Shown piece by piece: positions 9,302-37,040 of a DNA stretch of 64,000 nt (positions are counted from its first letter, which is position 1; every line of letters starts with the position of its first letter). The stretch lies in the NCBI GenBank assembly GCA_000004985.1, contig GG738880.1. One strand, given 5' to 3'. The notes under the pieces are model-generated. The model did not search any database, had not been told where the DNA came from, and saw nothing but the letters and a program-made list of their open reading frames with translations. The translations under genes and the position numbers were made by a program. The DNA comes from Naegleria gruberi (lineage: Eukaryota).

Positions 9302-10330
9302 TTACATGATAGAGTTTTTGATAAGATCGCACCTAGCAGACTCAAATTTCATAGTCATTTCAATAAGTTGCTCCTCCCTTTTGAAGAGCTTTGTTTCTAA
9401 ATCTTGTTTGGCAAGCAACAGTTGTTCATACTTATCTTCCAACTCAACATCTCCTACGTGTTTGTTGTTTTCCTGATACAGGTCAAGAAATATCCTAAAG
9501 GAATCATTTTTCTCCTTTTCAAAGTGACTGCTAAGAATTGAATTTTTTGCTTGATCGAGTAATTGATCTTTTGTCACTCGCTGGTGTTCTAATTGACTCA
9601 GTAAGCATTCAACATTATCCTCGGTTTCCTTATTAATCATTTTCAATTTTTCAAACTTTTCTTCTGATGCTTTCAATTTTGCTCTCAACAATTCCAACTC
9701 CTTTTTTAGTACTTGAGTTTCACTACTATTCGGTGATCGAGAGGTTTCTCTTCTAGGTCTCATATCCACACTGTGCGATATTAAACTTTCCATCTTTTCT
9801 TGTTGCTCCCTTATGTCTGATTCTCTCTTCTTGATTATTGTTTTCAACTTTTTCAACTCTTCCTGTGCCGAGAATAAGGACGTGGAGAGAAAAAAGTTTT
9901 CCTCCTTCTGACAATTTAATAGTAATTTCATATTATCCATTTCTCTCCTTAATTTTGAATTATCATCTCGGAGAGTTATAATTTCCTCACTAATTGATCT
10001 TCTCCTTGTTTCAGGTTCCAAAGTATAACCTTCAGATTGTCCCTTCTTAGAAGCCCATTTGTTATTATTCCTAATAGGTGAATTTGATGATCTACTACCA
10101 CTGCTATTAGATGAGGAACGAATGGGAGATGTTTTATAATTCCTGATGGGGCTATTAACTTCTCTTGTTATTGAATTGGGCACGATCTTACCTCGTGGTG
10201 TGCTACTAGGATTTGATGAGTGGGATTGATTGAGAGAGGAATTATTGCCCCGAGCAGATAATGGAGCTCTAGCTATTGCTGATGATGAAGATGATGAGAA
10301 GGAAGAGCTCTCAATGGTTATTCCAATCAT
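9302..10330 (-). CDS. hypothetical coiled-coil protein with an S-rich N-terminus
   Basis: 342-aa ORF with an ATG start; long heptad-repeat region (LKKLKTIIKKRESDIREQQEKMESL...); no recognisable catalytic domain. Confidence 0.5.
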   Translation of the reverse strand: MIGITIESSSFSSSSSSAIARAPLSARGNNSSLNQSHSSNPSSTPRGKIVPNSITREVNSPIRNYKTSPIRSSSNSSGSRSSNSPIRNNNKWASKKGQSEGYTLEPETRRRSISEEIITLRDDNSKLRREMDNMKLLLNCQKEENFFLSTSLFSAQEELKKLKTIIKKRESDIREQQEKMESLISHSVDMRPRRETSRSPNSSETQVLKKELELLRAKLKASEEKFEKLKMINKETEDNVECLLSQLEHQRVTKDQLLDQAKNSILSSHFEKEKNDSFRIFLDLYQENNKHVGDVELEDKYEQLLLAKQDLETKLFKREEQLIEMTMKFESARCDLIKNSIM

Positions 10331-10510
10331 TTTTTAGTTATTTTAAAAAACTAGTCGTTAAGGCGCCCTTTTTTGAAATTAATGTGGCGCTCGTGATCCT
10401 TAATGATTCTTAGTTTTTAGAAAATTTTGAAAACTTAGAAAAGTCAGGATATGAAATTTGCATTTTCTTAATTTCGAAATAAATTTCATCAAATTAATTA
10501 TTAAATAAAA

Positions 10511-11998
10511 ATGTCATCATCAACCACAGCAACAACTCGGTTTAAATCTAATGAACGTTATAAAGATTCTAAACAATTGGCTGAATGGTTAAAATCTTCA
10601 ACTAAATGTCCTCCTTCTCTTGTGGAAAGTACGTAAACGTTTTATGAAAGTAATCAACAACATCATCATCATAAACTCTAAAAGAATTGGAAGAGTACGG
10701 ATTGGATGAATGGACATTAATGAGTATAAATGATGAAAATCTATTGATGGAAGAGTTGGGAATTAATAAATTACAAGCTAAAGCCCTGATGAAGGTAATA
10801 GCTGACAGTGGAAATGGTAATAGCAATACTGAACAGAAAAATTCATCACAACAACTTGAACAAAACACGAGTCAACAAGCAACAAGTAATGTTGACAACA
10901 TTGGTGAAGAATTGTTGAGGAATAATACGAATGAGAATGGAAATCAGACAAGTGATACTCATCAGCCCAGTAGTTCTACCTCTACAAATATAGCATCTGC
11001 ACCCAATTCTTCAGAGGGTTTATTTATTGAAATGGGTAAGTCTGATTTGCTCATAATGTGAAATAGGTTGACCAACATATTAAATAGGAGGATTGGATGA
11101 TGGTCTAACCAACGAGCCATATACTCCAATTGAGGAAGAGGAAAATGCAGCTAATGACGGAGACAATGAAGCTCAAACAAAACTAGGAGATCGATATTAC
11201 TCTGGGGATGGTGTCGAAAAATCGTTTGAAAAGGCATTGGAATGGTATAGGAAAGCAGCAGCTCAAGGAAATACTACTGCTCAATTTCATATTGGAAAAA
11301 TGTATGAGAAGGGAGAAGGAGTTCCCATATCACCAGAAAAAGCATTCGTTTGGTATAAAACAGCAGCACAATTAGGGGATGCAGCAGCTCAGCATCAAAC
11401 AGGGAAAATGTATTTTTGGGGATTTGGAGTTGAAAAATCAAATGACTTGGCATTTGAGTGGATATCTAAATCAGCCAATCAAGAATATTCACACGCAGAA
11501 TATGATTTGGGAAATTTATATTATGAAGGAAATGGAGTTGAACAATCACTTACAGATGCTTTTAAATGGTATGAAAAGGCAGCTAATCAAGGTGATGCAT
11601 ATGTACAAAATCTTATAGGGGCCATGTATCAGGAAGGTGAAGGAGTAGCTCAGTCATACTCAAAAGCATTTGAATGGTATGAGAAAGCAGCCAATCAAGG
11701 AGAGGTCAATGCTCAATTTCATTTAGCCCTACTGTACCAAGAAGAAGGAGTTCACCAGTCATACGAGAAGTCCTATAACTTACTGGAGAAATTAGCTAGT
11801 TCCAATGATAAGGATGCTCAAATTGCCTTAGGTGATATGCTTTGTGAGGAGGAAAGTGTTAGAGAAATGGCCATTTCATGGTATGAAAAGGCAGCCAATT
11901 TAGGGAATGATGATGCTAAAATCAAACTAGAAGAATTGAAAAAGAAGAGAAAGAGGTTGGCTATAAGAAAACCAAGGAGAGGCAGAAAAAGAAAATAG
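10511..11998 (+). CDS. SAM-domain plus Sel1-repeat (TPR-like) protein
   Basis: Three exons: 10511..10628, 10685..11035 and 11088..11998, with introns 10629..10684 (GTACGT..AAG) and 11036..11087 (GTAAGT..TAG). Exon 2 carries a SAM domain (LEEYGLDEWTLMSINDENLLMEELGINKLQAKALMKVI). Exon 3 has at least six Sel1 repeats (A..G...AQ..LG.MY..G.GV..S...A..WY.KAA). Confidence 0.7.
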
Positions 11999-12359
11999 GT
12001 TCACCTTATAGAAGTCTTGATTTAAGCGAACAAACATTGTTTTAATTGCACATATTAGCTATTTGCTATTCAGCTAAAAAGATTATTGTTTGCAGACTTT
12101 TTATTTTAATAAACATCTCAAACAACTAAGAGAACATAGATGCAGAAACTTAGATGATTATGACATGTTAATATTTGTAATTATAGTAATTTAGAATGAC
12201 GTTTAAGTTAGTTTGTTCTTTCAAATTCGAATCTCCCAGTAATAATAAGCCTTAATAAATCACCAATACAATGTGAAAGAACTTATTAGTAAAAATCTTT
12301 TTCAAAGTTTGGTAAATTTTAAGATCACACTCCGAAAATTTAAATAATATTTAAAAAAA

Positions 12360-13205
12360 ATGAGTGGAGAAGTAGCAAAAGCACTTAATCTTGTCAAACA
12401 AAATCTTGTTCAAACATTAAAGGTAGATATTTTGATAATTACATCCGATGGAAATATTTAATTTTGGATCATTTAGAAATTAAATAGAGGAGAAAATACA
12501 TGCCGATTGGTTGCTGTCAGCAAGACAAAACCTGTGGAATTAATTCAAGAATGTTTGGATGCTGGACAATTACATTTTGGAGAAAATTATATTCAAGAAA
12601 TATGTGAAAAAGCACCAGTAATGTCAAAGGATATTAAATGGCACTTTATTGGACATCTTCAATCAAACAAAATTAAACAACTTGTAGAGAAAGTTGAAAG
12701 TTTATACATGGTAGAAACAGTTGACAGAGTTAAAATTGCTCAAACTTTGGAAAAAGCTTGGGCTGCTACTCAACGTGAAAATAAGCTTAACGTTCTTGTT
12801 CAAATTAATACTTCAAATGAGGAAAGCAAATCTGGAATTACAACAGTTGAGGAATGTGAAGAAGTTGTCAAATATATTCAAGGTAGGTGTTATTTGTTTT
12901 ATTACCAACCATGAAATACCAAACTGTTTCTGCCAAAAGAACAATGTCCACATCTTAGTTTTAGAGGTCTGATGACAATTGGAAGCTTCGAACACAGCCA
13001 AGATCCAGAAAGAAATCCTGACTTTGAAAAATTAGTTTGGTTCAGAGACGAATTATTGAAAAAGATGGAATCTTTGACAAACATTGAAAACTTTGAATTG
13101 AGTATGGGAATGTCACATGACTATGAAATTGCCATCAAGTATGGAAGTACCAATGTTCGTGTGGGAAGCACAATTTTCGGTGCCAGAAATTATGCAAACC
13201 AATAA
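12360..13205 (+). CDS. PLPBP: pyridoxal-phosphate homeostasis protein (YggS/PLPBP/YBL036C family)
   Basis: Three exons: 12360..12422, 12477..12882 and 12967..13205 (introns GTAGAT..TAG and GTAGGT..AG). RLVAVSKTKPVELIQECLDAGQLHFGENYIQE, WHFIGHLQSNKIKQL, LMTIGSFEHS and LSMGMSHDYEIAIKYGSTNVRVGSTIFGAR match yeast YBL036C nearly motif for motif. Confidence 0.85.
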
Positions 13206-13206
13206 A

Positions 13207-15591
13207 TTATTTAAAGTATGAATATTTCACTTTCTGTTGTTCTGGTTGTGAATCATAGAATGGAAGAGATCTCTTCTTTGTTGAAGCTACATCCTCATCT
13301 TGATAATCTTCATACTCAACCACTACATCTTGATTTTGTTGTTGCTGTTGATACATGTATTGTTGTTGGGCATATTGTTGTTGAGCTTGAAGTTGAGCCT
13401 GTTGTTGAGCTGCATACATTTCTTCATCAGATTTAAGAGCAGAGTCTTTCAACATTCTACAAAATGATCTTAATCTTCTATACTTGTTAGTAATATATTC
13501 TATTAATAATTTCCAATCTTCATCCTTCTTTTCAAGAACAAAATATGATTTAGTTGATAAAATCAATTGAACAAATTTCTTATATCCATTAACTCCAGCG
13601 CTACTTTTGAGGGTAATTTGGAAAAGACCCTTCAGACTTGCGTGAATTTGTCTCATATAGGCGTGGAGATGAGGATCTAATTGTGCAATATATTCCATTA
13701 ATATCTTTCTTTGTTCTTGAAGTGCAGGATCTTCAGTTTCAATTTCATCCATCTGTCTCAATACAGTTGTAGTTGTATAAGAATAATAGTAAGAAGTTTC
13801 TTCCATTGGTGTAACTGGAGGTATCCATGATACATATCTCAAGAAAATCATTACAGCTTGTCTGTCTTGGATATTTTCGTTTCTCAAAATATAGGCATAA
13901 ATCTTACCCAAAAGAATATTTGCTTGTATGACTGTTTCCTTTTGGTTTTGGTGTGAAATGGCTGCATAAGACAATAAATGCAGCACGAGTTGCAGATATT
14001 CACTATCAAAATGAATATATTGATCTGTTTCTGCAAGAATGTCTTCAGTAAAGTGCCCAGATTCAGTAGGATCAGATGTTATGAAATTCAAATGATCTAT
14101 TCCTGTCACTCCAACAAGTTTGACGGCATAAGCAATAACTCCACCAATGTTGGCTGGAGTAACAACATCCAAAAGTGATCTAATTATTTCTACAGTTCTG
14201 TTCATGTTTGGATGTTTTTCCACTTCTTCCATTTGTTCCATGAATAATGAAAGAAGATTCACTAATTTTTTGGCTTCTGCATCCTTTCCTTCCTTGTCCT
14301 TGATTCTTGCCAAATGTTCAAAACATTTTCTCAAAAAGGCTTCTTCCTTTGGATTTTCTCCAAAAGCAGAAATGTCAGCACCCTCGTTTTTAATTCTGAG
14401 CTTCTTTTCTTCAAAGAGCTCCTCAAGTAATATTTCAACGAGTGGTCCTTCCTCTTTGGCATCTGTACAAAATTGTTTGACTTCATCAACTAAATCACTA
14501 TTTCTCAAGGAAAGGAGAACAACATTTTTAAGTACAAATATTAATCCAAAGCCAAGCTCTGAATTTTCTACCAGCAAATTGTAAACTTTCTCGTTCATAT
14601 CCAGCACAAACTCTTCTTCTATCGATTCTACTTTCTTATTTACAAGGTTAGTCACATATGATGGTACTCGAAGATAATTCACTAAATTGGATTTTTTCCA
14701 TACTACTTCCAACTCCTTTTCAAATTCAACAATTTTTTCATTAACTGTTGGTTGAGCATCTTCATCTCCATTGTCATCACCAACTGAAAAAGTGGAAGGT
14801 GCTGGCGTTACTATAGTGTTTGCATTATTTTTGAAATTTGTTTCTATTACACATTCCGTAATTTGAAGGAGGATTTTGGCCTTGAAATCTAAAAACTCCT
14901 TTTTAGTTTTCTTTTTGCTTTTCTTTTTAGCTTTAGGTTCTGTTTGTTGTAATAGATAACCTAAAATTTGTTTTATCAGTGTGGAATCCAGCTTTCCGTC
15001 CTTCATAATTTTAGGTTTAATAGAGGCATCATCCAAAAACTTCATAGTTTTAGATTTAATGGTTTGTGATGAGAGTTCATCAAAAACCCTCTTATTATCT
15101 CGCAAAGCAATTTCTTGTACACCAGACCAAAAAACTTTGCCTGTATATGTTTTCCTTGTTAAAACACTTTCCTTTTCGAACACTGTTACTGTTGGAACTA
15201 TATTTTCTATTGATGATGGTTGTGTTGTGTTTGGTGGTAAGTTGTGTTGTTCCTCTGGTTTTTGTTCAAACAAGAAGATGTCATCATTGTGGTCGTTTAC
15301 CTTTTCCAGCAAAAACAGGCCACTGGTATCATGTGATGAATTATTCACTAAATTTGAAGTATTATTACTAGCAAAAACATCCAAACTTTCACCCGATAAC
15401 ATAACCTCTTCTTTATCACTCTTTCCAAATAACAAGGAACCATTACTAGCTGCTATAGAAGAGGTATTCAACAACTCTGTTGGAGGTTGATGCTCCTCTA
15501 TCTTTATCAAAGAAGGATCAACACTCGGTGATGAAGTAAAATCATTCTCCAAACTAGTTGTATGTTGTTGTTGGTGTTCAGTATCGCTCAT
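13207..15591 (-). CDS. hypothetical large protein (helical; Q-rich C-terminus)
   Basis: Continuous 794-aa ORF with an ATG start; it converges on PLPBP with only 1 nt between the two stop codons; no domain recognised. Confidence 0.55.
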   Translation of the reverse strand: MSDTEHQQQHTTSLENDFTSSPSVDPSLIKIEEHQPPTELLNTSSIAASNGSLLFGKSDKEEVMLSGESLDVFASNNTSNLVNNSSHDTSGLFLLEKVNDHNDDIFLFEQKPEEQHNLPPNTTQPSSIENIVPTVTVFEKESVLTRKTYTGKVFWSGVQEIALRDNKRVFDELSSQTIKSKTMKFLDDASIKPKIMKDGKLDSTLIKQILGYLLQQTEPKAKKKSKKKTKKEFLDFKAKILLQITECVIETNFKNNANTIVTPAPSTFSVGDDNGDEDAQPTVNEKIVEFEKELEVVWKKSNLVNYLRVPSYVTNLVNKKVESIEEEFVLDMNEKVYNLLVENSELGFGLIFVLKNVVLLSLRNSDLVDEVKQFCTDAKEEGPLVEILLEELFEEKKLRIKNEGADISAFGENPKEEAFLRKCFEHLARIKDKEGKDAEAKKLVNLLSLFMEQMEEVEKHPNMNRTVEIIRSLLDVVTPANIGGVIAYAVKLVGVTGIDHLNFITSDPTESGHFTEDILAETDQYIHFDSEYLQLVLHLLSYAAISHQNQKETVIQANILLGKIYAYILRNENIQDRQAVMIFLRYVSWIPPVTPMEETSYYYSYTTTTVLRQMDEIETEDPALQEQRKILMEYIAQLDPHLHAYMRQIHASLKGLFQITLKSSAGVNGYKKFVQLILSTKSYFVLEKKDEDWKLLIEYITNKYRRLRSFCRMLKDSALKSDEEMYAAQQQAQLQAQQQYAQQQYMYQQQQQNQDVVVEYEDYQDEDVASTKKRSLPFYDSQPEQQKVKYSYFK

Positions 15592-15821: not shown

Positions 15822-16733
15822 ATGTGCTTGTTCGGAATTGAAAAGATTACTCAAGGAATTGCCTCTTATTGTTCATCGTTGAATGATGTGAGAGCTGTGG
15901 GCAGTGTTTGTAAATCGAGTCATCAAGCAGTGTTTGTATCTAGTGGATCGGAGAGTGTTATTTGGAAAGTACAGTATGATAGAATTTCCAAGAAGGCTTC
16001 ATCATTGCCATCATCATCGGGTAATAATGAAACATTTAAATCTAAATTAATGAAATTGGTTATCAATGAAAAGTTTACCAAAATGAAATCGGTCTTCTCT
16101 GCAAAGAAGGGTCAATATATTCTCTTACAAGATATTGAATTTCCATCAAAATTTACATTGTTGGAAAAGAATTCTTTATTATTAGTGGATCAACTCTTCA
16201 CCTTTTTAAATGTCAATAATAAGAATAAGGGACATGGTGATAGAATTTCTAAGTGTTTCCTTGTGATTGTTAGATGTTTGGTTGCTGTGAGTCAATTCCA
16301 CTCTTCGGAAAAGTTATTGGATTTATTCAAGAAAGTGGTGAACAAGTTTATTGAATTATTTGGATCTCAATTCCATGATTCATTGGTGGATTTTGCTCCA
16401 AAACATAAGCCAAGATCTGTTCCAAAGGAAAAGGCCCTTGCACTCATCATTGAATTGGAACAAAGTGTTGTAGGAGTATTATCATACTTGATTCTTGTTG
16501 AAAAACTCAATTCAGCAAATCACAAGGCAGGTCTCTTCTCAAATTTATTGGATTATCAGGTTAAAGCTCAAAATGAAGAGTTAAAGTCCACTTTGTGGAA
16601 TGTATTAGTAGAGATTTTCAATAATCATGCATCAACTCTTGAAATTCTGAAGAAAAAGGGTTCCAAAGATATCATTTCAAATTTATCAGTGGAAAGTGAC
16701 GAAAAAACCAAAATATTGAGTGTATTCAATTGA
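15822..16733 (+). CDS. hypothetical protein with an F-box-like N-terminus
   Basis: 303-aa ORF; N-terminal LFGIEKITQGIASYCSSLNDVRAVGSVCKSS resembles an F-box (L.E....I.SYL...D......VCK); the remainder is helical. Confidence 0.45.
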   Translation: MCLFGIEKITQGIASYCSSLNDVRAVGSVCKSSHQAVFVSSGSESVIWKVQYDRISKKASSLPSSSGNNETFKSKLMKLVINEKFTKMKSVFSAKKGQYILLQDIEFPSKFTLLEKNSLLLVDQLFTFLNVNNKNKGHGDRISKCFLVIVRCLVAVSQFHSSEKLLDLFKKVVNKFIELFGSQFHDSLVDFAPKHKPRSVPKEKALALIIELEQSVVGVLSYLILVEKLNSANHKAGLFSNLLDYQVKAQNEELKSTLWNVLVEIFNNHASTLEILKKKGSKDIISNLSVESDEKTKILSVFN

Positions 16734-16786
16734 GTTTGACCATAAACTAATTGATTTTATTCAATGGGTTTGAGTTTATACAAAAT

Positions 16787-17431
16787 TTAATCCGAAGTAT
16801 CCATTTTGTTTGAATTATTGGAAAGCAAAAAGGAGGAGGAAAATACAGCTCTATCTTGTGGAATATCTTTAGATGTTGGTTCAACTTGTTCCTTTACAGC
16901 TGGTGTTCCAACAGATGAAGAAGCAGCCTGATTTGGAACATTGGATTGAGAATAGGTTAGTGTAGTTGTTGGTGTTGTTTGCTTCTTTTCAAATTTATCA
17001 ACATCAATGAGAGCACTGACATCATCGAATGGACAACATTTTAGAATGGCCATTGTTGGAGTTTGTTTCTTCTTCTTATTTGGATATGCTTGAAGTGAGG
17101 AGGAGGGATATGTTTTCTCAACCTCAGTTTCAATTGGAGTATTATTTGCTTGTGCCTTTTCAAAATCTGAAAGTTTCATTGGAGCAGCTGTTGCATTTGA
17201 TGATGTTGAAATGTTATCATTTTCATTTCTACTTGTTTGCTGATTGAGAAATTTACCCAATCCATACTCTTCTGTACAACATTTCTGTGCCAATTCTTTA
17301 GGAGTTGATCTCTTCTTAGATTGATGATGTAACTGTGGACTAGAATCCATAAAGGATGTAAAGAATGATCGATTCTTCTTATCCTTCTTTGCTGGAGCAA
17401 TATTTGAAGTGGAAAGATTGAAAAAGCCCAT
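16787..17431 (-). CDS. hypothetical S/T-rich protein
   Basis: 214-aa ORF with an ATG start; low complexity; no domain. Confidence 0.3.
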   Translation of the reverse strand: MGFFNLSTSNIAPAKKDKKNRSFFTSFMDSSPQLHHQSKKRSTPKELAQKCCTEEYGLGKFLNQQTSRNENDNISTSSNATAAPMKLSDFEKAQANNTPIETEVEKTYPSSSLQAYPNKKKKQTPTMAILKCCPFDDVSALIDVDKFEKKQTTPTTTLTYSQSNVPNQAASSSVGTPAVKEQVEPTSKDIPQDRAVFSSSFLLSNNSNKMDTSD

Positions 17432-17628: not shown

Positions 17629-18099
17629 TTATTGAATATCAATTGATCTAGTCTTTTTCTTTGGTTCTTCAACTACTTTTGGAACAGTAACTCTCAAAAC
17701 ACCATGTTCCAAAGCTGCCTTGACCTTATCAAAATCAGCATTTGGTGGTAAATAGACAGTTCTACTGAAAGAACCATGTGATCTTTCAACGCAGTGATAT
17801 CTTTCATTATCTTCCTTCTTTTCCTTTTCAACATGACCACTGACAGTCATGGTTCTATGCTCTTCATCAATATCAATCTTTAAATCATCCTTTGTCATAC
17901 CAGGAACATTACAAACAATTTTAACTTCATTTGTAGTTTCAGAAACATCAGTGGTTGGTTTAAATTCAGGAACTAATCTATCATCAAATCTATCAAATGC
18001 TCTCAAGAATGGATCATCAAAGAAAGTATCAACCCAATTATTGGTTCTGTGTTGTCTGGCCAATTGCTTATTATTGTGATGATTGTTGGAGCTCATTTT
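17629..18099 (-). CDS. small heat shock protein (Hsp20/alpha-crystallin family), copy A
   Basis: MSSNNHHNNKQLARQHRTNNWVDTFFDDPFLRAFDRFDD...VKIVCNVPGMTKDDLKIDIDEEHRTMTVSGHVEKEK...RSHGSFSRTVYLPPNADFDKVKAALEHGVLRVTVPK is a typical alpha-crystallin domain with a C-terminal extension. TATAAA sits about 85 nt upstream (18184..18193). A near-identical inverted copy lies at 63716..>64000. Confidence 0.85.
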   Translation of the reverse strand, partial: KMSSNNHHNNKQLARQHRTNNWVDTFFDDPFLRAFDRFDDRLVPEFKPTTDVSETTNEVKIVCNVPGMTKDDLKIDIDEEHRTMTVSGHVEKEKKEDNERYHCVERSHGSFSRTVYLPPNADFDKVKAALEHGVLRVTVPKVVEEPKKKTRSIDIQ

Positions 18100-18390
18100 C
18101 AGTTGTTGCTTGTTTTGCAGTAGTGATTGTGTATTATTTGTTTTTTTTGTTGTGTATAAAAGGATTAGAGTGTTGTGATTGAATTTATAGTCCTGTATCT
18201 CAAATTCCGAGGAAACTTTTTTGGAAATTTTAAAATTAAAATTTTGTAATTCCGTTACAATACAAATTTGGCTTGCATTCAAAAATGGTTTCCAACAAAG
18301 TTGTGATCTCGATTCCGATGGTGCTTTTTACGGAACTTCCACTGGATAGCAACACCTTGAATCATCCATTCACATACAACAAGTCTTGTC
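17629..18390. repeat. arm A of a long inverted duplication (Hsp20 gene plus about 300 bp of promoter)
   Basis: The reverse complement of 17629..about 18390 matches 64000..about 63400 nearly base for base, with a few substitutions; similarity decays beyond about 18380 and 63420. Confidence 0.8.
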
Positions 18391-18852
18391 CTTCTTCCTC
18401 CAAGCAACTATACAGTATATCCATCAAGGTTTCATTATTTTCCTTGACTATTAATATTTCTATATTTCACAATAGCTCGCAACAATTTAAATCCATTTCA
18501 ATTATTTTATTCTGAAGTATGTTTATAAATTGAAACAAATGTTAAAAATGAATGTCTTAATCATCCTTAAATTAGAAAGACAGTATTGTGAACAATACAT
18601 CCAAAAAGTATCCTAAATCCAAACCGCTTTCCGCAGTTACTTTGAAGAGTGCCTCAAAGATATCGAAAAAAGATGGGAAAATCAATCTGAAAGATATTTA
18701 TTTTACAGAGATAAGCATCAAATTGATGAAGAACAGTTGTTTGCCATTTTGAGTACTGAAAGACAAGCACCTTTAGAATTTGAACCTTGTGATGAAGATG
18801 ATTAAATAAAGGGAATAGAATGCGAAATATTGAATTGGCTGACAATGATAAT

Positions 18853-21800
18853 TTATTGTTTGAGAGCAGAGCCCATTTGTTCTTTCAATTCGAATAATTT
18901 GTTCATTTGTTGATAACTGGATGTAATGAAGAAACGAGAGAAAGTATCATCCAAGTTAACCATCAAAGCACAATACATATCCTTTAAAGTCTCTTTCAAA
19001 TCATCGCTTTCAATCTTGCCACTTTTAATCAATTCGAATTGAGAATTGAATGATTTCTTGATGTGATGAGAAAAATTGATTTCCATTGGAGAATTAGTTG
19101 CCACAAAATTTTCATTCCATTCAGTAAATTCTTTTTCCAGATCTTCCATTGATGGAATATTTCCCCTATTAATTTCCTCAAGAATAGGATAAAGTTTCTT
19201 CCAAAATATTACATTTTCTAATGAATGTTCTGTCTTGGCAAATTGTTCAAAAACTTGACAAAGTATTGGTTGAATAAGAATATCCTTGATTTGATTATCC
19301 TCTTCCACATCTTCATTTCCAATCTGTGAAGTATAACCCTTTTTAGAAGCCAAGTATTCATAAATGGAAATAATTGAAACTAATCCACCAAAACTTAAAA
19401 TCAAAAGTAAATTATAAATCACTTCAAAAATATAGCCAACAATTAAATAGCTCTCTCTTGCATTGAGTGAAGTCTGTGAGGTGAGATAGGAGAAACCCAT
19501 TGCATTGGAAATTACATAGAACGCAATACTAATGAAAAATAAGGCAAATTCCTTTCTGAAGGAAAGATTGTCATTCACAATAAAGTAATTCTTGATTGGG
19601 TTAATGAAGAGTTTCTTATCTGTTTCTTTCAATTTGGAATTCAATTGAACATATCTCAATTCCATATAAATATCCACTGCATAGATAACACAAACAAGTA
19701 ATGAAATGGTCATTACAAATGCAAATAATGAGCTTGACATAATTTTTGTGTAGGTGTCTCCATCAATTGCACTCCTTCCCATCAGTGAAATGAAGATAAC
19801 AAAATAAATAATAATGAATAGAGCAATAACAGCATTCCACACAATAGAGAAAAACTTGTTGGTGAGAATGATCTTGGTCCACTTTAAAAAGGTATCAGTT
19901 TGAGTTTCTTTCTTTTCACTCAAAATGGCCATCAATTCATAAACATATTTGAATGTAATATATCTCAAATTGAACATTAAATAGTTCAATAATGAGAGGC
20001 AATAGAAAGTGCAACTAATCATTGTAAAAACGGATTGGACTATTGAGCTATCTCCACTTCTATCCAATAACATTGAACCAGGAATAATCACGCTAAAAAG
20101 CAGTTCAATAATAAGAGATACCAGGGCAAAGTAAGGAAGATACCATCTGCTCTTTGTTGGATTCCTTCGTGAGGTTATAATTAATCCAACAATTGCAACA
20201 ATAGCCAATACAATCAAAATTGAGCTGACAACAATTTTTCCAATGGTGAGAGGTATGCTACTGTATTTGGTAAATTGAAGGAATGCAGAGAATGTAGTGG
20301 TATGATTACATTGACAGTCAATAATACCATTAGATTGGTCAACCAGAGTTTTACATCCATCTGTTTTCCATAATCTTTCAGTTTCATCGAAATACTTGCA
20401 AGAAATAGTTAGTTGTGTGGAATTGGATTGGATGCTTTCTATGGTGCTCTTATCTACATTAAATTTAATGCTGATAGGGTTAGAGAGATTCGAAACGTTG
20501 AGAACTTGACCATTGGAAATATACTTGAGATCAGTAACCTTGGCCAAATTGACAAATGACGTTCCTGCTAATCCAATTAAATTATTGTAGGAATAGTTAT
20601 TACTCAATACAGATCCAGATATTAAGGAGGCCAACTTTTCAACATTTAAATAGGTAACACTTCCAATAGAAATATCTTTTAAAGTACTTAGCTCACTAGG
20701 AGTTACTACTGTGGTATTTCCATCAGAAACAATTGATTGATTGATATTTCTGGCAACTGACACTATAAAAGAAGCTGTAACCACTTGGAAAATACTATCT
20801 GATTGGGATGAAATTCTAGTGGCCACCATTACCGTTTTCTCAATAATTGAATTACTTTCTGAGCTAATATTGAAATTTTGAGACGAGTAGCAGTTAGAAT
20901 ATGCCATTAATACATTTGACAATGTTGATTCGTATGAAGCACTTGAGGTCTTTAAGGTATTCGAATCCAGTTGACTAAGTTCCTTGGAAATATTAACAGC
21001 TAAATTAGAGATGGTGTTCAGAATAGTCGAACTAACTTGAGATTGGGATGTAATGACAGACAATGCTTCTGTAACTTTGAGAGTTTCATCAGCATTGGAT
21101 GCATTTCTTTGTAAAGTTGAAATAGCGTTAGTGACAAGTTCCAAAACTTGAACAACATTAGTTGACTTGGAATAGGTATCCTTATTAGATGCAATGGTAG
21201 CAACATCACTAATTGGTAAAGTTTTGAGGAAACTTTCAGAAAAAACACTTTCGTATTCCATTACTTGTAAAGTATTGGAAAAGTCAACTGTGAATGATTC
21301 AGTTCCTAACGTGGCTGTTATAGAACATGAATAATTTCCCTTCTTCATGAACTTATCAATTGAAATAATCAATGGATTGGTGAATGATTGGATGTTCAAA
21401 GGTGTATTGAAATATGTGGTCAATTGATTTTTGCATTTCATTTCATAAGTAGCTGATTGGTAAACTGATTTGAATGATTCCGCATAGTTCAGTACTACTT
21501 TAACACTTGTATTAGTGTAAGTGACAGTTGAATAAAACTTTACATCAAATACAGGAGTCAGGCAATCTTTTCCATACCATCCACTTGTACAACCTGAAAT
21601 TACATACTTTCTAATAGTTGAATCTGCAACAATTATAGATCCATCATTAGTAATAGAAAGTGAGTTTGGCTGGAAGAGTATTATTTCATTCTTTCCTGGT
21701 GTTCCAATTATTGTTGAGATAGTATTCGATGATCTATACCATCTTCTAATACATTGATTGGATTTTTCTAAAATAGCCATATCTCCATTAGAAAAGAATG

Positions 21801-23630
21801 CAAAGTGATTTAATCTCATTGAATAAGTTTCTGGTGTTAGATCTGTTTCATTAGAATAAGTAATACAATCAGATTTTCCAAATAAGGTAATAAGTGATTT
21901 GTTTTGCATAATCTTGTACATATTACACAAAACTGAATCATAAAATACAATATTACCATCAATGGGATCTACTGACAAACGGTTAACAGATTTTCCAAAC
22001 AATGTATCGTTACCAACAAACACATCAAGAATTCCATTACTGTCAACTGTAAAAATTGACCCAACACTGCCAATAAATATCTTTGAATCATTCATCATAA
22101 CTGATCCTATTTTGATTGATGAATTAGAAGCCAAGCCCCCATATTGAACTTCATTATGAGCGTGGTATCCTCCAATTATTGTTGTCATTACTCCACTCAC
22201 ATCAATTTTCATCACTGCTGTAGTGTTGGCAAAGTACAGATTATCAGAGTTTTCAAACAATGAAATTGAAGTACCAACAGGTGAATTAATGGCAAGAGTT
22301 TCACCTACAACATAGGAAATGCCAAACGAATCTGTTCTTCCATTACCAGCAATAATAGTAGAAATACCATTCGTATATTTGTGAATGAATGGAACAGCAG
22401 CTTGGTAGGCATATCTCAACTCTCCACTCTGCTTATCCACAATAAATTGTGAAACAGTATTCAAATTGGTATTGTTTGCCAGAGTTGGCTCATTATTTCT
22501 CACAAAATATTTGGTTGAGCATTCTCCTGCAATAACAGCATTTGAAGTTCTATTGTAAATAAATCTTGTTCTTTCTGAAACAATTACATTACCAAATGAA
22601 TCAATCAAATAGGCATATGGTGAATTAATTCCTGTATTATTCAATACAGCTTGTTGAGCAGTATTAATTTCATAAGCTAAAATTGGTTGACCATTAGCAC
22701 TCGACATGTAGAGAGTTTCTCCAAATTTAACTAGTTTAGTTGGATAGAGTGTTGGATCATACACTACAGTTTGCATTTGTCTTGTATTCAAATCGATAGC
22801 TGTAAGTTTTCCAACAATTGCTTCGACCACAAATAATGTATATCCATCTAAAACCAATCCTTGAGGATTTCCAAGTGAAACTTTAGCAGCCCCAACCGTA
22901 TTAATATTACCATCACCTGCTACAGTGGTTATGTTACGATAAATCATATCATACATTCTCACTTTGTTATTGCTTGTATCTGAAATATACATGTATCGTC
23001 CAGTTTCGGATATAGCAAGGCCCATTACACCATTAAATTGAATTGTTTCCATTGGATTATTATCACCACCGTAACCAGAACTACCACAAACTCCAACAAA
23101 ATCCTCAATAATATTCGTCATCAAATTTACCCTTCTAACGCAACTGTTACCAGCATCTAATATGTTTCGAATAAAAACAAAATAAACATTCATGACATAC
23201 CTGCAATATAAACATATCCTCCAAACTCAACAATATCCAAAGGGTTTGCAAGTATGGCCAAAGTAGCCAAAACACCATTTCCATAATATCCATAGGCATA
23301 ACTTCCAGCAAATTGTGAAATTTTTCCATCACTTGAAATTCGTCTAATAACATCATGTCCAGAATCGACAATATAAATCGTATTATTTGAGCCCATTTTC
23401 ACAACCTCTATCGTATCCAAACATGCCATTTTAGCATCCAATCCATCGCCATACTTGTTGAGTGAATTCAATGACATGCCACCAGCAAGTAAAGTGGAAG
23501 TTGTTGAATATTTGAAGGAACCTGAAGGATTGGACTTGGCAGTTGTTGTTATCGAAAGGAGGAGTAACAACAGTGCATGTAGTAGTACAGCCACTGACAG
23601 CAGTGAGATCAATGACGTGGGATTTGGCAT
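18853..23630 (-). CDS. adhesion-GPCR-like receptor: signal peptide, NHL-type beta-propeller, GPS/GAIN motif, 7TM and C-terminal RGS domain
   Basis: Two exons, 23202..23630 and 18853..23157 (44-nt intron, GTATGT..TAG, phase 1). N-terminal signal peptide (LISLLSVAVLLHALLLLLLS). Repeated NHL-like blades (NTIYIVDSGHDVIRRI, YVYIADAGNSCVRRV, RYMYISDTSNNKVRMYD...). S/T-rich stalk. GPS motif CKYFDETERLWKTDGCKTLVDQSNGIIDCQCNHTTTFSAFL at about 20284..20410. Seven hydrophobic helices at about 19345..20275. RGS fold (ENVIFWKKL...INFSHHIKK...MYCALMVNLDDTFSRFFITSSY) at about 18905..19270. Confidence 0.8.
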
Positions 23631-23962
23631 GTATCAAAATGTCAAGTAGTTGTTTTTGATTTTTTTTGGAGTGGATTGAAAGTTTGTTGGGTTGACTGCA
23701 AATTGGTAGGTTCTGGTCTGTTCGTTGGTAGTTTCTGCTGATCACTAGATTTTGATTAAACTGTTTATTTTGATTACCATAGTCTAAAAGTGTACCATTA
23801 CCTATTTACAATATTTAATGATCAATAGTTACATTTCGATATTCACTTTGTAAAAGATTAACAATGAACATTATTAATAATTGCTTCATTAGGTATTTCT
23901 AAAAGATATTTCCCCATTAGTCAATTACAAAGTATTTTATTTACAATTTGATAATTCAATAA

Positions 23963-24313
23963 TTACATTTCAATATGCACCTTGTAAAGTGATGGGAAGT
24001 TTTGATGTGGAATTTGAGCCATCTTTTTAACACAATCACTGATATTTCTCATTTCAGTCATAGCCTTTTGGAATTTCTCTGGAGATTCCCAATGAGCATA
24101 ATTAATATATTGATATTGAGATTTTTCCATATCAAGTGCCTTATGAAGAGAGGTGTGAATGTAACCATCTTGTTTCTTCAAGAATTGAGCACATTCAACC
24201 CAAGCCAATTCAAATTCCTTTTCATCTTTGCTGTCAATATGGAATGGATTCATTAAGATGACATGTTTAGTTTTCATGGATTTCAATGGACAGTTTGGAT
24301 TGTTGAAGAACAT
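23963..24313 (-). CDS. ABM-domain (antibiotic biosynthesis monooxygenase / Dabb-like) protein
   Basis: 116-aa ORF with ATG; HVILMNPF...EFELAWVECAQFLKKQDGYIHTSLH...YQYINYAHWESPEKFQKA fits the ferredoxin-like ABM fold pattern. Confidence 0.5.
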   Translation of the reverse strand: MFFNNPNCPLKSMKTKHVILMNPFHIDSKDEKEFELAWVECAQFLKKQDGYIHTSLHKALDMEKSQYQYINYAHWESPEKFQKAMTEMRNISDCVKKMAQIPHQNFPSLYKVHIEM

Positions 24314-24532
24314 GTTGAGTTGATTAGGGCAGTATTATATCTTAATTAGATTTGCTTGTTTTTTTCAAATTGTTGTTTGATTCAATTGTCCAAAAGTGTT
24401 TCTTTAAATAGTCCGCAAAAATTACTCCACCAAATTTCTCTCCAAGCAAACAGAGGACAGTTTCAAAAAGACTGAGGACATTTTTCATATCTCTCTTATG
24501 TGAGTGGATATTTTTGAAATGATAGGAAGGGA

Positions 24533-26062
24533 TTATTCTTCTCTAATATCCTCTAATTTCTCTAATAACTTGTCAACTGTGAGCTTTTTGTAATTTTCGA
24601 ATATGTCTTTGAAAAATAGAATCAACTCTTTGGAGAGAATTCTCTGGGTTTCTAAGAGTGCTATCTTTTCAGAGAGGCTTTTCTTGGCAGGAATCTCTCC
24701 TGTGGAAACATAGAACATAGTGGCTGCGTATGAATACAAATCCTCTACTTTTGAATGATTTCCTGTTCCAGAGCTATAATCATGCTTTCCTCTAAACGAA
24801 ACAGATTCAACAGTATTTTCAATAACTCTGCCAAAATCTCCCAAAGCTATTGAAATTTCTTCATTTTGTAATTTTTTGATAAACACATTGCATGGTGAAA
24901 TGTCACAATGAATTTTTTCCTTATCATGTAGGTCCTTCATTCCTTTGAGTAATTGCTTTGAAATCTCCAATATCATCTTGTTGGAAAACTTTTTTCGTTC
25001 TAATAATGTTCCGTGTTCAAAATATTCCATGAAATAATACACCTTATTATCCTTAACAAAAATCTTATTGAAATGAATCAAGTAATTGCTGTTGATATTT
25101 GCAATTTTGACTTCCTCTAATGCCTCCCTCACTGTAGCAGTGTGTAATACTCGCACTACTACATTCTCTTTTCCAGTATTCACTTTATAAATTAGAGCAT
25201 CTCCACCTTTTCCCAATTGCACTATATCGCTCTCTCCACATACTAGCAAATCCATAATCACTTTTCTTGGTTCTGTATACATTTTCAGATGAACTACTCG
25301 ATCCTTCTTATTAAGAGGAGCCAATTTTCTAATCATTACTTGAATGTCATTATCATCATTGACAATTATTGAACTATTGTTGAATTCATATTTACATATA
25401 AAATCTATTGTTGACTCTAAAGCTAATTTACTTCTGCATGCTTGTGTGAATGTAGCAAAAGATTCAAGATTTTCCTTTGTAAAACTTGTGTCTACCTTTC
25501 CATCATAATTTGTTTTCAAATTCAAAATTAGTGGGAATTTTTGTTTCGTATCAAGTTTTCTGAACTCACGAGGAACAAAACTAAATTCTGAAATCATCAC
25601 TTTCACATCGTCATCATCACTGACAACTTCCAAACTTGAATTATCTTTTCCCTTCAAAAGAAAACAATCCTCCTCAATTCCAATTAATTCAATCAGTTTC
25701 AAATAACTAATTTCCGTTGATATCCTAATCCACCTGTCCCTAAACAAAATTTCCATACCATTTGGTGATCCGACACTCGCAGTAGAACTATTCGATAGAG
25801 AGGTTGAATATTCTTCATCATTCAAAACTCTAGATATTGATGTTTTACTAGAATTACTACTTCGTATCGTTACACTCGTTGGAGAGCAAGAGAGTGGTGA
25901 TAGACCACCCCCTTCCGATTTTAAATCTAAAATATTCTCATCATCAGCACCTGGGTTGGAAATAATCGTCACCTCTGATGTTGGTAATTTTGAGGTTGTT
26001 TTGAAGAATTTGTTGAGCCACATTTTTTTAAAGTTTCTTTTCGTATTTGAAAGATAAGTCAT
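24533..26062 (-). CDS. protein kinase-like protein (probable pseudokinase) with N-terminal tandem beta-grasp-like repeats
   Basis: 509-aa ORF with ATG. The C-terminal half has the kinase fold (LGKGGDALIYKV, HCDISPCNVFI, LGDFG), but VAIK is replaced by VVRVL and HRD by HCD. Two repeated N-terminal units (DDDVKVMISEFSF / DDNDIQVMIRKLAP). Confidence 0.6.
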   Translation of the reverse strand: MTYLSNTKRNFKKMWLNKFFKTTSKLPTSEVTIISNPGADDENILDLKSEGGGLSPLSCSPTSVTIRSSNSSKTSISRVLNDEEYSTSLSNSSTASVGSPNGMEILFRDRWIRISTEISYLKLIELIGIEEDCFLLKGKDNSSLEVVSDDDDVKVMISEFSFVPREFRKLDTKQKFPLILNLKTNYDGKVDTSFTKENLESFATFTQACRSKLALESTIDFICKYEFNNSSIIVNDDNDIQVMIRKLAPLNKKDRVVHLKMYTEPRKVIMDLLVCGESDIVQLGKGGDALIYKVNTGKENVVVRVLHTATVREALEEVKIANINSNYLIHFNKIFVKDNKVYYFMEYFEHGTLLERKKFSNKMILEISKQLLKGMKDLHDKEKIHCDISPCNVFIKKLQNEEISIALGDFGRVIENTVESVSFRGKHDYSSGTGNHSKVEDLYSYAATMFYVSTGEIPAKKSLSEKIALLETQRILSKELILFFKDIFENYKKLTVDKLLEKLEDIREE

Positions 26063-26158
26063 TATTGGAAATGAACCGAGGTGTTGAATATGATAACATT
26101 GTTAATATCCATGAAATTTGTAATATATTTAAATAATATTAACAAATATTGAAAAAAA

Positions 26159-27589: not shown

Positions 27590-27622
27590 AATTCCTTCCT
27601 CTCTTCAAAATATATAAAAGAC

Positions 27623-28019
27623 CTATTCTAAATTTTTAATCTTCCAATCTGATTCCTTCTCTCCTTTCTCAATTGTAACTTCCAAACTCTTATCATTTAC
27701 CAAAATCTTTGCGATTTTAGTAATGTGTGAAATAAAATCAACCTACCAACATGCAAGCTCTCAAATCTTCCCATTCATTTCTACAACCATTTTCAACACC
27801 CTTTCCTTTCAAAAAAGTATTTGAGTACCAATCATCAAAACAATATTTATAAGCAGCCTCCAACTTTGGACATTCCTTCTCCAAATTTACATTAAAAGTG
27901 TGTTGAGTAATTGTTCCTCTTTCACTATCCTTACGTGTTTCCTCTCTAACATTATAGAATGATGATTCCGATGATGAATTCTCTCCTCCTCCAATAGTAG
28001 CACTTTCTTGTGATGACAT
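27623..28019 (-). CDS. TRIAP1/Mdm35-like twin Cx9C protein (mitochondrial intermembrane space)
   Basis: CPKLEAAYKYCFDDWYSNTFLKGKGVENGCRNEWEDLRACM has two Cx9C pairs and the FLKG motif of TRIAP1/Mdm35. A possible short 3' exon 27623..27706 follows a 40-nt intron (GTAGGT..AAG); that exon is speculative, and the alternative end is MLVG* at 27738. Confidence 0.6.
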
Positions 28020-28214
28020 TTTTTAAAAAAATTAAATTTTATCTTTTCTTTAAAATTGCAATTTGGGAAGATTTAATCTGCAATTTTAAGTTCTATTCCA
28101 ATAGACCTAACTGCCATCATGAATTATTTACATTCACTATTCTAAAATTCAAAGGCTTTTTATCAAAGTTTAAAATTTATTTTTAAATTCAATCAAAAAA
28201 AAATTGAATAAAAA

Positions 28215-29687: not shown

Positions 29688-29707
29688 ATACATTTCTATT
29701 TATTCAA

Positions 29708-34073: not shown

Positions 34074-34279
34074 ATTCTCTAACCTCGCAATTTTCAAAAA
34101 CAAACTGTACATAAAACAAACATAAAAATTATAAATTATTAAAAAATTAAGTTCTCTTCTACCTATCACATCACTTGAAAAACTGATAGTGGACTATTCG
34201 AACTGAAGGATGAGAACGTGATTTTCGTCATCTAATCAACTTTCGACATCGAGTTTCGAACTCATAAAGAAAAAAAACA

Positions 34280-36971: not shown

Positions 36972-37040
36972 AATAATACTAGGAATTTCTTCAAAATGTA
37001 AAATAAAATTATTGAATGTTGCTAATTGAATACTGATTAT

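What the first reader, a model, noticed from the sequence alone, without database searches (positions are those of the whole stretch)
17629..18390. Two near-identical Hsp20 genes in inverted orientation about 45 kb apart, bracketing the window
The sHSP CDS plus about 300 bp of upstream sequence, including a TATAAA box and the palindrome TGGAAGTTCCG, occur at 17629..18390 on the minus strand and again at 63400..>64000 on the plus strand. Sequence differences are few, so the duplication is recent or kept alike by gene conversion. The intervening 45 kb is single-copy. Such long-range inverted pairs can mediate inversion of the intervening segment. They can also be the inner edges of a larger palindrome. 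The second copy runs off the window, so the full extent is unknown.
Basis: seen in the sequence. Interest (0 to 1): 0.6.

Follow-up and report, generated by a model that had tools for sequence, protein, structure and literature searches.

The report
Inverted heat-shock gene pair, Naegleria
Two almost identical copies of a small heat-shock protein gene, each with its promoter, face away from each other 45 kb apart in the amoeba Naegleria gruberi. They belong to a three-copy family, appear to be kept alike by gene conversion, and lie at points where gene order has been rearranged relative to related amoebae; this is a real but familiar kind of genome feature.

Summary
Window 18376..17812 (-) matches 63430..64000 (+): 549 of 564 ungapped positions are identical, with 5 indels. 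It is the only long repeat in the window.

The window is eukaryotic, from Naegleria gruberi NEG-M. Copy A is the annotated sHSP EFC42357. Copy B matches EFC42293/EFC42295, two further genes that encode identical proteins. From the accession numbering I infer that this third copy (C) lies just past the window, on B's strand.

Differences cluster at the promoter-distal edge: 10/119 plus 4 indels there, against 5/445 in the core (permutation p<0.0002). Between strains the CDS changes at least as fast as its flanks. This points to an older duplication whose core was recently homogenised by gene conversion.

Downstream neighbours are not duplicated, so there is no larger palindrome. Each arm is 0.75-0.95 kb.

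Gene order in N. lovaniensis, N. fowleri and Willaertia magna places the block left of A next to the block just inside B. Both copies therefore sit at synteny breakpoints. One 45-kb inversion bounded by A and B, plus a small local flip, reproduces the N. gruberi order. This is parsimonious but unproven, because the far side of B is unseen.

It is an ordinary kind of feature and a new instance of it.

The parts
17629..18096 (-). sHSP copy A, complete CDS (155 aa) = N. gruberi EFC42357.1 / XP_002675101.1 / D2VLB4
   Evidence: Translation. Pfam HSP20 E=1.2e-24 over residues 51-155. 100% identical to P0011. PDB relatives are plant class I sHSP, wheat Hsp16.9 and S. pombe Hsp16 at E 1e-17 to 1e-19.
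17812..18376 (-). Arm A of the inverted repeat, as far as it can be compared before the window ends on the B side. The true arm probably runs on to between 17629 and 17432.
   Evidence: The full-length protein P0012 shows that the whole CDS is duplicated. The 214-aa gene starting at 17431 is not duplicated.
63430..64000 (+). Arm B of the inverted repeat, cut by the window end
63716..64000 (+). sHSP copy B, first 95 codons. It matches P0012 (EFC42293.1/EFC42295.1, D2VLE0), including T55A.
   Evidence: Assignment of B to EFC42293 comes from strand-wise accession numbering and is an inference.
18097..18376 (-). Promoter and 5'UTR of A. TATAAA at 18189..18184; GGAAGTTCC at 18340..18332; CGGAA at 18317, 18254 and 18209. 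The stretch 18256..18160 is 100% identical in A, B and the related strain.
63430..63715 (+). Promoter and 5'UTR of B. TATAAA at 63622..63627; GGAAGTTCC at 63467..63475; CGGAA at 63490, 63557 and 63602.
18423..18461 (-). Weak extra homology block upstream of arm A, pairing with 63289..63325
   Evidence: Local alignment score 40. 0 of 500 shuffles and 5 of 969 real-sequence controls reach it.
63289..63325 (+). Weak extra homology block upstream of arm B
9302..15591 (-). Synteny block 1 ('K block'): a 342-aa ORF, an Ala_racemase_N-like gene and the 794-aa gene K. It is inverted relative to N. lovaniensis and ends about 2 kb outside copy A.
   Evidence: tblastn against L008, L009 and L016.
44943..56748 (+). 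Synteny block 2: SAPS, LRR, Fuseless, RF-1, Na/H exchanger and DUF4795. It has the same orientation as in N. lovaniensis, N. fowleri and Willaertia.
58829..62847 (.). Synteny block 3: GRAM/VASt gene (+) and SLC35B1-like transporter (-). It is flipped relative to all three outgroups and ends about 0.6-0.9 kb inside copy B.
18377..63429 (.). Single-copy 45-kb interval between the arms, the candidate inverted segment
   Evidence: No other repeat. Signed block order discussed in the full report.

Best explanation
The window is nuclear DNA of the amoeboflagellate Naegleria gruberi NEG-M. The feature is a 0.75-0.95 kb unit comprising a complete, intronless small heat-shock protein gene (alpha-crystallin/HSP20 family, 155 aa), its 5'UTR and about 280-430 bp of promoter. 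The unit is present in at least three copies on one 416-kb scaffold. Copy A is on the minus strand at 17.6-18.4 kb. Copy B is on the plus strand from 63.4 kb. Copy C is inferred to lie a little further right, on the same strand as B.

Shown:
- A and B are true divergently oriented duplicates with unique flanks.
- Their differences are concentrated at the promoter-distal edge, while the proximal promoter, 5'UTR and CDS are about 99% identical.
- Both copies lie at boundaries of synteny blocks relative to N. lovaniensis, N. fowleri and Willaertia magna.
- None of those species has an sHSP gene at the corresponding places.

Inferred:
1. The duplication is considerably older than the near-identity of its core suggests. 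The core has been homogenised recently by non-allelic gene conversion between the copies, as in other multi-copy heat-shock genes. This keeps several co-regulated, identical chaperone genes available for a burst of expression under stress.
2. A and B are the two ends of a roughly 45-kb inversion fixed in the N. gruberi lineage. Together with a small in-place flip of the GRAM/VASt-SLC35B block, it converts the ancestral order (block 2, block 3, block 1) into the observed one (-1, +2, -3).

The inverted duplicate could have arisen in two ways. It could have been produced by the inversion itself, through staggered breaks around a single sHSP gene. Alternatively it could have existed beforehand and mediated the inversion by non-allelic homologous recombination. 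I cannot separate these and rate them about equal. Either way, the pair is now a substrate for further conversion and, potentially, for re-inversion.
For: Organism and copies:
- The A protein is 100% identical to N. gruberi EFC42357.
- B's visible part, including T55A, equals EFC42293/EFC42295, which are two genes encoding one protein sequence.
- Eight neighbouring ORFs are exact N. gruberi proteins on the same 416,450-bp scaffold.

Family: Pfam HSP20 E=1e-24; PDB sHSPs at E 1e-17 to 1e-19.

Repeat.

Mosaic divergence:
- 10/119 mismatches plus 4 indels in 18376-18257.
- 0/97 mismatches in 18256-18160.
- 3 mismatches plus 1 indel in the remaining 5'UTR, and 2/285 in the CDS.
- Maximum chi-square 43.3, permutation p<0.0002; Fisher p=1.4e-4.
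- A further weak homologous block lies upstream.
- Between strains the CDS is not unusually constrained. A differs from L001 at 4/468 CDS positions (from the alignment), against 40 mismatches plus gaps over 6.6 kb, 99.15% identity overall. Selection alone therefore does not explain 0.7% divergence between A and B in the CDS.
- At 14 of 15 A/B differences the related strain carries the A state.

Synteny:
- In N. lovaniensis and N. fowleri the order is DUF4795(+), SLC35B(+), x, GRAM/VASt(-), m, Mob1, K(+), Ala-racemase-like(-), 312aa(+).
- In Willaertia the order is SAPS, LRR, ..., SLC35B(+), ..., GRAM/VASt(-), ..., Mob1.
- In the window, K and its block lie at 9.3-15.6 kb in inverted orientation, 2 kb from A. 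GRAM/VASt-SLC35B lie at 58.8-62.85 kb in flipped orientation, under 1 kb from B.
- No sHSP is present in those outgroup loci, and the N. fowleri sHSP genes lie on other contigs with unrelated neighbours.

No larger palindrome.
Against: - The right flank of B, including copy C, is outside the window and could not be fetched. N. gruberi DNA is not in the contig collection.
- The outgroup genes m and Mob1, which lie between GRAM/VASt and K, are not in the window. If they sit to the right of B/C, the big inversion's right end lies beyond B. B would then mark only the small flip's breakpoint.
- The left end of the big inversion is bounded only to 15.6-48.6 kb. The gene next to A (RGS protein) has no detectable orthologue in the other species.
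- A related strain shows the same arrangement at both junctions, so there is no sign of ongoing flipping.
- The conversion argument rests on two sequences and about 570 bp. Strong constraint on promoter, UTR and codon usage combined with an intermediate-age duplication is not excluded.
- Placement of copy C on the plus strand is inferred from accession numbering, not seen.
Confidence: 0.62

Rival explanations
1. This is a single recent dispersed duplication with no gene conversion. The unit was copied once not long ago, and the higher divergence at the distal promoter simply reflects relaxed constraint there. The CDS, UTR and core promoter are held by purifying selection and codon bias.
For: Overall identity is high, at 97.3% of ungapped columns. 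The most conserved stretch (18256-18160) carries the TATA box and CGGAA motifs, which are also conserved in N. fowleri sHSP promoters, so it is plausibly constrained.
Against: Only 1 synonymous difference occurs in 95 codons, against about 8% mismatches plus 4 indels in the adjacent 120 bp. Beyond that lie an unalignable 46 vs 104 nt stretch and a weak 82% block. Between strains the CDS accumulates changes at least as fast as the flanks, including 2 non-synonymous changes. Constraint is therefore too weak to hide a tenfold older age.
Confidence: 0.2
2. The repeats and the rearrangements are unrelated. The sHSP copies happen to lie near synteny breaks in a genome that is heavily rearranged relative to its distant congeners.
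For: N. gruberi is distant from the other species. Several small genes differ at the junctions: a and b replace m and Mob1, and gene x is missing. This points to multiple events. The left breakpoint is only loosely bounded.
Against: This is the only long inverted repeat in 64 kb. Its right arm begins 0.6-0.9 kb from the end of block 3, and its left arm lies 2 kb from the end of block 1. Swapping the interval between the arms restores the S/G-K neighbourhood seen in N. lovaniensis and N. fowleri. By rough geometry, the chance that an arm falls within the last 1.2 kb of the window is about 2%.
Confidence: 0.22
3. This is an assembly artefact: a collapsed or misjoined repeat, or a haplotig inserted in inverted orientation.
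For: None specific. B runs off the window, so its 3' junction is unseen.
Against: The copies differ at 15 positions and 5 indels and have unique flanks. An independent metagenome contig from a 99.15% identical strain crosses A with both flanks, and another covers B's inner flank to 117 bp from the repeat. The reference annotation carries three separate gene models. The window end is not a contig end.
Confidence: 0.02
4. The pair forms the inner edges of a much larger palindrome whose arms extend outward through the downstream genes.
For: B's downstream sequence is not visible.
Against: The 214-aa, 303-aa and 794-aa genes downstream of A are each the only N. gruberi member of their 90% protein cluster. 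A's 3' flank (17811-16700) has no second match in the window.
Confidence: 0.03

Closest known systems
Inversion-associated inverted duplications at Drosophila breakpoints (staggered-break model; Ranz et al. 2007, PMC1885836)
   Same: Non-repetitive genic sequence of about 1 kb is present once at each end of a segment, in inverted orientation. The segment is rearranged relative to sister species, and there is apparent breakpoint re-use.
   Different: Here the ancestral single-copy state at a breakpoint was not found. There is no sHSP at the two visible ancestral junctions in three outgroups, and the third junction is unseen. A third, direct copy also exists. The organism is a heterolobosean amoeba, where no such analysis has been published in the literature I could search (in PMC9928731 N. 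gruberi was left out of the synteny analysis).
Multi-copy heat-shock genes evolving in concert, such as dipteran hsp70 inverted pairs (PMC3071340 and PMC3924832, known to me only from the titles and abstracts listed; details from general knowledge)
   Same: Stress-inducible chaperone genes are duplicated together with their promoters. Some copies are in inverted orientation. Coding and proximal regulatory regions are nearly identical, while flanks diverge, which is attributed to gene conversion.
   Different: The gene family is sHSP, not hsp70. The spacing is 45 kb rather than a few kb. Heat inducibility is not demonstrated here, and no canonical HSE is present.
Cytosolic class I-type small heat-shock proteins (wheat Hsp16.9 1gme, pea 18.1 5ds2, S. 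pombe Hsp16 3w1z)
   Same: An alpha-crystallin domain covers residues about 51-155, with sequence matches at E 1e-17 to 1e-19. A C-terminal I-x-I motif (IDI) is present, and the protein is about 17.9 kDa.
   Different: Sequence identity is only moderate. The N-terminal arm (MSSNNHHNNKQ...) is specific to Naegleria and Willaertia. There are no biochemical data.
Inversions mediated by non-allelic homologous recombination between inverted segmental duplications (general mechanism; my own knowledge)
   Same: The arms are inverted and about 99% identical over at least 445 bp, long enough for homologous recombination. They flank a unique segment.
   Different: Both orientations have not been observed. 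The two strains available share one arrangement.

Membership tests
Small heat-shock protein (HSP20 / alpha-crystallin, PF00011) | Alpha-crystallin domain detected above the curated threshold | tested here: met
   PF00011 at 86.8 bits against a cut-off of 20.8, residues 51-155. PDB sHSP matches at E down to 7e-19.
Small heat-shock protein (HSP20 / alpha-crystallin, PF00011) | Small size (12-43 kDa) and a C-terminal I/V-x-I/V anchoring motif | tested here: met
   155 aa, with C-terminus ...KKKTRSIDIQ containing I-D-I (read directly).
Small heat-shock protein (HSP20 / alpha-crystallin, PF00011) | Stress-inducible expression and holdase activity | not testable with these tools
   No expression or biochemical data. 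A literature search found nothing on N. gruberi sHSPs.
Canonical HSF-type heat-shock promoter | Arrays of inverted nGAAn units (GAAnnTTC / TTCnnGAA) upstream of the TATA box | tested here: not met
   Neither GAAnnTTC nor TTCnnGAA occurs within 450 bp upstream of A or B. Instead there are GGAAnTTCC, TTCCnnGGAA and repeated CGGAA, at 4 per 280 bp against a window mean of 0.28. The arrangements TTCCG-N8-13-C(C/G)GAA and TCGG(A/G)A about 20 bp upstream of the TATA box recur in both N. fowleri sHSP promoters.
Paralogues under concerted evolution (interlocus gene conversion) | Mosaic divergence: a nearly identical tract embedded in older, more diverged homology | tested here: met
   Maximum chi-square p<0.0002; 10/119 plus 4 indels against 5/445; a weak distal block also present.
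Paralogues under concerted evolution (interlocus gene conversion) | Copies cluster by genome rather than by locus when several strains or species are compared | tested here: inconclusive
   Only the A orthologue of one related strain was recovered (L001). It groups with A at 14 of 15 sites. B and C of that strain were not found.
Inversion bounded by inverted repeats (NAHR or staggered-break origin) | Arms in inverted orientation, highly identical, flanking unique sequence | tested here: met
Inversion bounded by inverted repeats (NAHR or staggered-break origin) | The segment between the arms is inverted relative to the ancestral order, with breakpoints at the arms | tested here: inconclusive
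   The block order -1,+2,-3 against +2,+3,+1 in outgroups fits an A-B inversion plus a local flip. The right arm is under 1 kb from block 3 and the left arm 2 kb from block 1. However, the left breakpoint is bounded only to 15.6-48.6 kb, and B's outer flank is unseen.
Inversion bounded by inverted repeats (NAHR or staggered-break origin) | Staggered-break model only: the duplicated sequence is single-copy at one breakpoint in the uninverted arrangement | tested here: inconclusive
   There is no sHSP at the D|S or G|m junctions in N. lovaniensis, N. fowleri or W. magna. The third ancestral junction (left of the RGS gene) could not be located.
Inversion bounded by inverted repeats (NAHR or staggered-break origin) | NAHR switch only: both orientations exist among individuals or strains | tested here: inconclusive
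   The one related strain available has the same junctions on both sides (L001, L007). No long reads are available.
Large palindrome | Arms extend outward through neighbouring genes | tested here: not met
   The downstream genes of A have no N. gruberi paralogue at 90% identity or more.

The most novel reading that the evidence does not exclude
The A/B pair, with C, could be a live recombination switch. On this reading the 45-kb segment, which carries about 30 genes, still flips between two orientations in N. gruberi populations through recombination within the sHSP repeats, and conversion keeps the arms competent. In addition, the promoters may use a non-canonical, CGGAA-based heat-shock element shared across Naegleria.
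Probability: 0.1. Interest if true: 0.55.

Novelty: new member of a known kind. Interest (0 to 1): 0.33.

Why it matters
It gives a concrete, checkable example of two processes in a free-living heterolobosean. The first is concerted evolution of a stress-gene family. The second is gene duplicates sitting at evolutionary rearrangement breakpoints. N. gruberi was left out of the synteny analysis in the Naegleria pangenome paper I read (PMC9928731), and my searches found no other treatment of it.

It also flags a candidate lineage-specific heat-shock promoter motif, and an apparently unannotated transporter gene next to copy B.

None of this overturns current understanding. The genes themselves are already in the reference annotation.

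Tried and rejected
- Exact-protein look-ups for copy A and for P0011/P0012, to fetch N. gruberi DNA beyond 64000. Nothing is on record.
- A metagenome scan for sHSP relatives. It returned only distant hits at 27-38% identity.
- Synteny of the N. fowleri sHSP loci with the A or B flanks. No neighbours are shared, so this could not date the duplication.
- A search for orthologues of the RGS gene next to A, to pin the left breakpoint. None was detectable in other Naegleria.
- A search for the N. gruberi Mob1/m orthologue through 90% clusters, to learn what lies right of B. It is not in the cluster.
- An accession-number search of the literature found nothing.
- The Logan contig L011 appeared to break inside the sHSP gene. 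Its end is an Illumina adapter, so it is uninformative.
- Rejected readings: a bacterial or phage context (GC 33.7%, TATA box, Naegleria proteins); a transposon-borne gene (no sharp termini, and identity decays gradually); a canonical HSE.

Full report
**Observation.** Reading both regions and searching the whole window for repeats confirms an inverted repeat. A gapped alignment defines it as A 18376..17812 on the minus strand against B 63430..64000 on the plus strand. There are 564 ungapped columns with 15 mismatches and 5 indel events. The match ends only because the window ends. Apart from low-complexity acidic stretches, nothing else of 40 nt or more is repeated in the 64 kb, so the 45 kb between the arms is single-copy. 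Copy A has a complete 155-codon ORF at 17629..18096. Copy B starts at 63716 and shows 95 codons, with one synonymous and one non-synonymous (T55A) difference.

**What and whose gene it is.** The protein matches Pfam HSP20 at 86.8 bits. Its solved relatives are plant class I sHSPs, wheat Hsp16.9 and S. pombe Hsp16. It ends with an I-x-I motif. The window is not prokaryotic: GC is 33.7%, and the best homologues come from Naegleria fowleri (72% and 66%) and Willaertia magna.

Cluster look-ups identify the source as Naegleria gruberi NEG-M. Copy A is 100% identical to EFC42357.1/XP_002675101.1. Eight neighbouring ORFs are exact N. gruberi proteins on one 416,450-bp scaffold. The visible part of B, including T55A, equals a second protein, P0012. 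That protein is deposited twice, as EFC42293.1 and EFC42295.1, so the family has at least three members.

The accession numbers of the window's genes run separately for plus-strand genes (42281, 42290 ...) and minus-strand genes (42355-42358, 42370, 42371), while UniProt numbers are positional. From this I infer three things:
- B is EFC42293.
- The third copy C (EFC42295) lies to the right of B on the same strand, with one plus-strand gene between them.
- The SLC35B-like gene next to B is unannotated.

**Extent of the repeat.** P0012 is full-length and differs from A only at T55A and V139I, so the whole CDS is duplicated. The 214-aa, 303-aa and 794-aa genes downstream of A are each the sole N. 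gruberi member of their 90% cluster. A's 3' flank has no second match in the window. The arms are therefore about 0.75-0.95 kb, and there is no larger palindrome.

On the promoter side, strong identity ends at 18376/63430. A collinear 39-nt block at 82% identity lies further upstream, at 18461-18423 against 63289-63325. It reaches a score attained by 0 of 500 shuffles and 5 of 969 real-sequence controls.

**Recent copy or gene conversion?** Divergence is far from uniform:

| Segment (A coordinates) | Differences from B |
|---|---|
| 18376-18257 (distal promoter) | 10/119 mismatches, 4 indels |
| 18256-18160 (proximal promoter) | 0/97 |
| Rest of the 5'UTR | 3 mismatches, 1 indel |
| CDS | 2/285 |

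The maximum chi-square statistic is 43.3 with permutation p<0.0002, and Fisher's test gives p=1.4e-4.

A metagenome contig from a closely related strain provides a yardstick. L001 is 99.15% identical to the window over 6.6 kb and spans A with both flanks. Between the strains the sHSP CDS differs at 4/468 sites, two of them non-synonymous. This is no slower than the flanks, so purifying selection does not explain why A and B differ by only 0.7% in the CDS. In the distal promoter, A and L001 differ by a single 1-nt indel, whereas A and B differ by about 8% plus indels.

The simplest reading is an old duplication whose core was homogenised by interlocus gene conversion at about the time the strains diverged. 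The identical B and C proteins point the same way. A moderately old duplication with strong constraint remains possible. I rate conversion at about 0.7.

**Surroundings and comparative gene order.** I used the SLC35B1-like gene beside B as a handle and fetched the orthologous loci:
- N. lovaniensis: L008, L016.
- N. fowleri: L009.
- Willaertia magna: L010.

tblastn of all window ORFs against these loci gives the following orders.
- N. lovaniensis and N. fowleri: Fuseless, RF-1, ..., Na/H exchanger, DUF4795(+) | SLC35B(+), x, GRAM/VASt(-) | m, Mob1 | K(+), Ala-racemase-like(-), 312aa(+).
- Willaertia: SAPS, LRR, ... SLC35B(+) ... GRAM/VASt(-) ... m, Mob1.
- The window has three blocks, in this order:
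  - Block 1 (312aa-like, Ala-racemase-like, K) lies at 9.3-15.6 kb in reverse orientation. Two unrelated small genes follow, then copy A.
  - Block 2 (SAPS ... DUF4795) lies at 44.9-56.7 kb in the ancestral orientation.
  - Block 3 (GRAM/VASt, SLC35B) lies at 58.8-62.85 kb and is flipped. Copy B follows.

The signed order is therefore -1,+2,-3 against the ancestral +2,+3,+1. Two inversions are needed to convert one into the other: a small in-place flip of block 3, and a large one whose ends fall right of block 1 and right of block 3. Exchanging the interval between A and B restores K to within a few kb of SLC35B and GRAM/VASt, as in N. lovaniensis and N. fowleri.

None of the outgroup loci contains an sHSP gene. 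The two N. fowleri sHSP genes lie on other contigs with unrelated neighbours. Both A and B therefore occupy N. gruberi-specific positions that coincide with synteny-block boundaries.

**Limits of the inversion inference.**
- The left breakpoint is bounded only to 15.6-48.6 kb. The RGS gene beside A has no detectable orthologue.
- B's outer flank is unseen.
- The outgroup genes m and Mob1 are absent from the window. If they lie right of B/C, B marks the breakpoint of the small flip rather than of the large inversion.
- The related strain shares the window's arrangement at both junctions (L001 across A; L007 to 117 bp from B), so no polymorphism is seen.

I put about 0.8 on 'both copies lie at evolutionary breakpoints' and about 0.5 on 'A and B are the two ends of one inversion'. 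Two origins fit equally well. One is duplication by staggered breaks during the inversion, which is the prevalent mechanism in Drosophila, where it accounts for 17 of 29 inversions (PMC1885836). The other is pre-existing inverted copies recombining by NAHR.

**Promoter.** No canonical HSF element (GAAnnTTC or TTCnnGAA) occurs within 450 bp of either ATG. The promoters instead carry four CGGAA/TTCCG motifs per 280 bp. This is the highest density in the window, where the mean is 0.28; 7 of the 8 windows with four or more fall in these promoters.

Two arrangements recur in both diverged N. fowleri sHSP promoters:
- TTCCG-N8-13-C(C/G)GAA.
- A TCGG(A/G)A element about 20 bp upstream of the TATA box.

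Its function is untested.

**Comparison with known systems and verdict.** The gene is an ordinary member of the sHSP family and is already annotated. Multi-copy heat-shock genes kept alike by conversion are well documented, as are inverted duplicates at inversion breakpoints. I found no published treatment of N. gruberi sHSP genes. I also found none on N. gruberi synteny with other Naegleria; the pangenome paper explicitly left N. gruberi out of its synteny analysis.

This is therefore a new instance of a known kind. Interest is modest.

Noticed in passing
window 61786..62847 (-): An intact 353-aa SLC35B1/UAA-type nucleotide-sugar transporter ORF. It is 100% identical to an ENA metagenome protein and 68%/59% identical to the N. 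lovaniensis and N. fowleri orthologues. No N. gruberi protein matched it, and the positional UniProt and EFC numbering leaves no slot for it, so it appears to be unannotated in the NEG-M reference.
   Followed up: partly
window 58829..62847 vs L008/L009/L010/L016: The GRAM/VASt-SLC35B block is flipped in place relative to N. lovaniensis, N. fowleri and Willaertia. The roughly 600-aa gene between the two (plus an RCC1-like gene in Willaertia) is missing in N. gruberi, where the two ORFs are only 23 bp apart.
   Followed up: partly
window 18097..18376 and 63430..63715; L002 and L004 upstream of 10001: A non-canonical motif set is shared by N. gruberi and N. fowleri sHSP promoters: CGGAA/TTCCG repeats, TTCCG-N8-13-C(C/G)GAA, and TCGG(A/G)A about 20 bp upstream of the TATA box. 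No GAAnnTTC heat-shock element is present in the N. gruberi promoters.
   Followed up: partly
window ~47121..47400: This is the only other 280-bp stretch in the window with four or more CGGAA/TTCCG motifs. It lies inside the LRR-protein gene.
   Followed up: no
window 38257..38330 (+): A tRNA-Thr(AGT) gene, the only RNA gene detected in the window.
   Followed up: no
L001, L007, L011 (ENA ERZ929261 / run ERR1078381, PRJEB11402): This metagenome contains a N. gruberi-like amoeba 99.15-99.4% identical to the window. The Logan contig from the same run begins with an Illumina adapter (AGACGTGTGCTCTTCCGATCT) fused to the sHSP CDS.
   Followed up: partly
window 18853..23193 (-): The RGS/GPS/NHL-repeat protein gene next to copy A (EFC42358; 1577 aa as annotated, with a 1446-aa ORF here) has no detectable orthologue in N. 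fowleri, N. lovaniensis or Willaertia among 8000 scored candidates.
   Followed up: no
window 15822..17431: Two small genes lie between K and copy A: a 303-aa gene (+) and a 214-aa gene (-). They have no counterpart in the outgroup loci, where 'm' and Mob1 occupy the equivalent position next to K. Mob1 and m are not in the window.
   Followed up: partly
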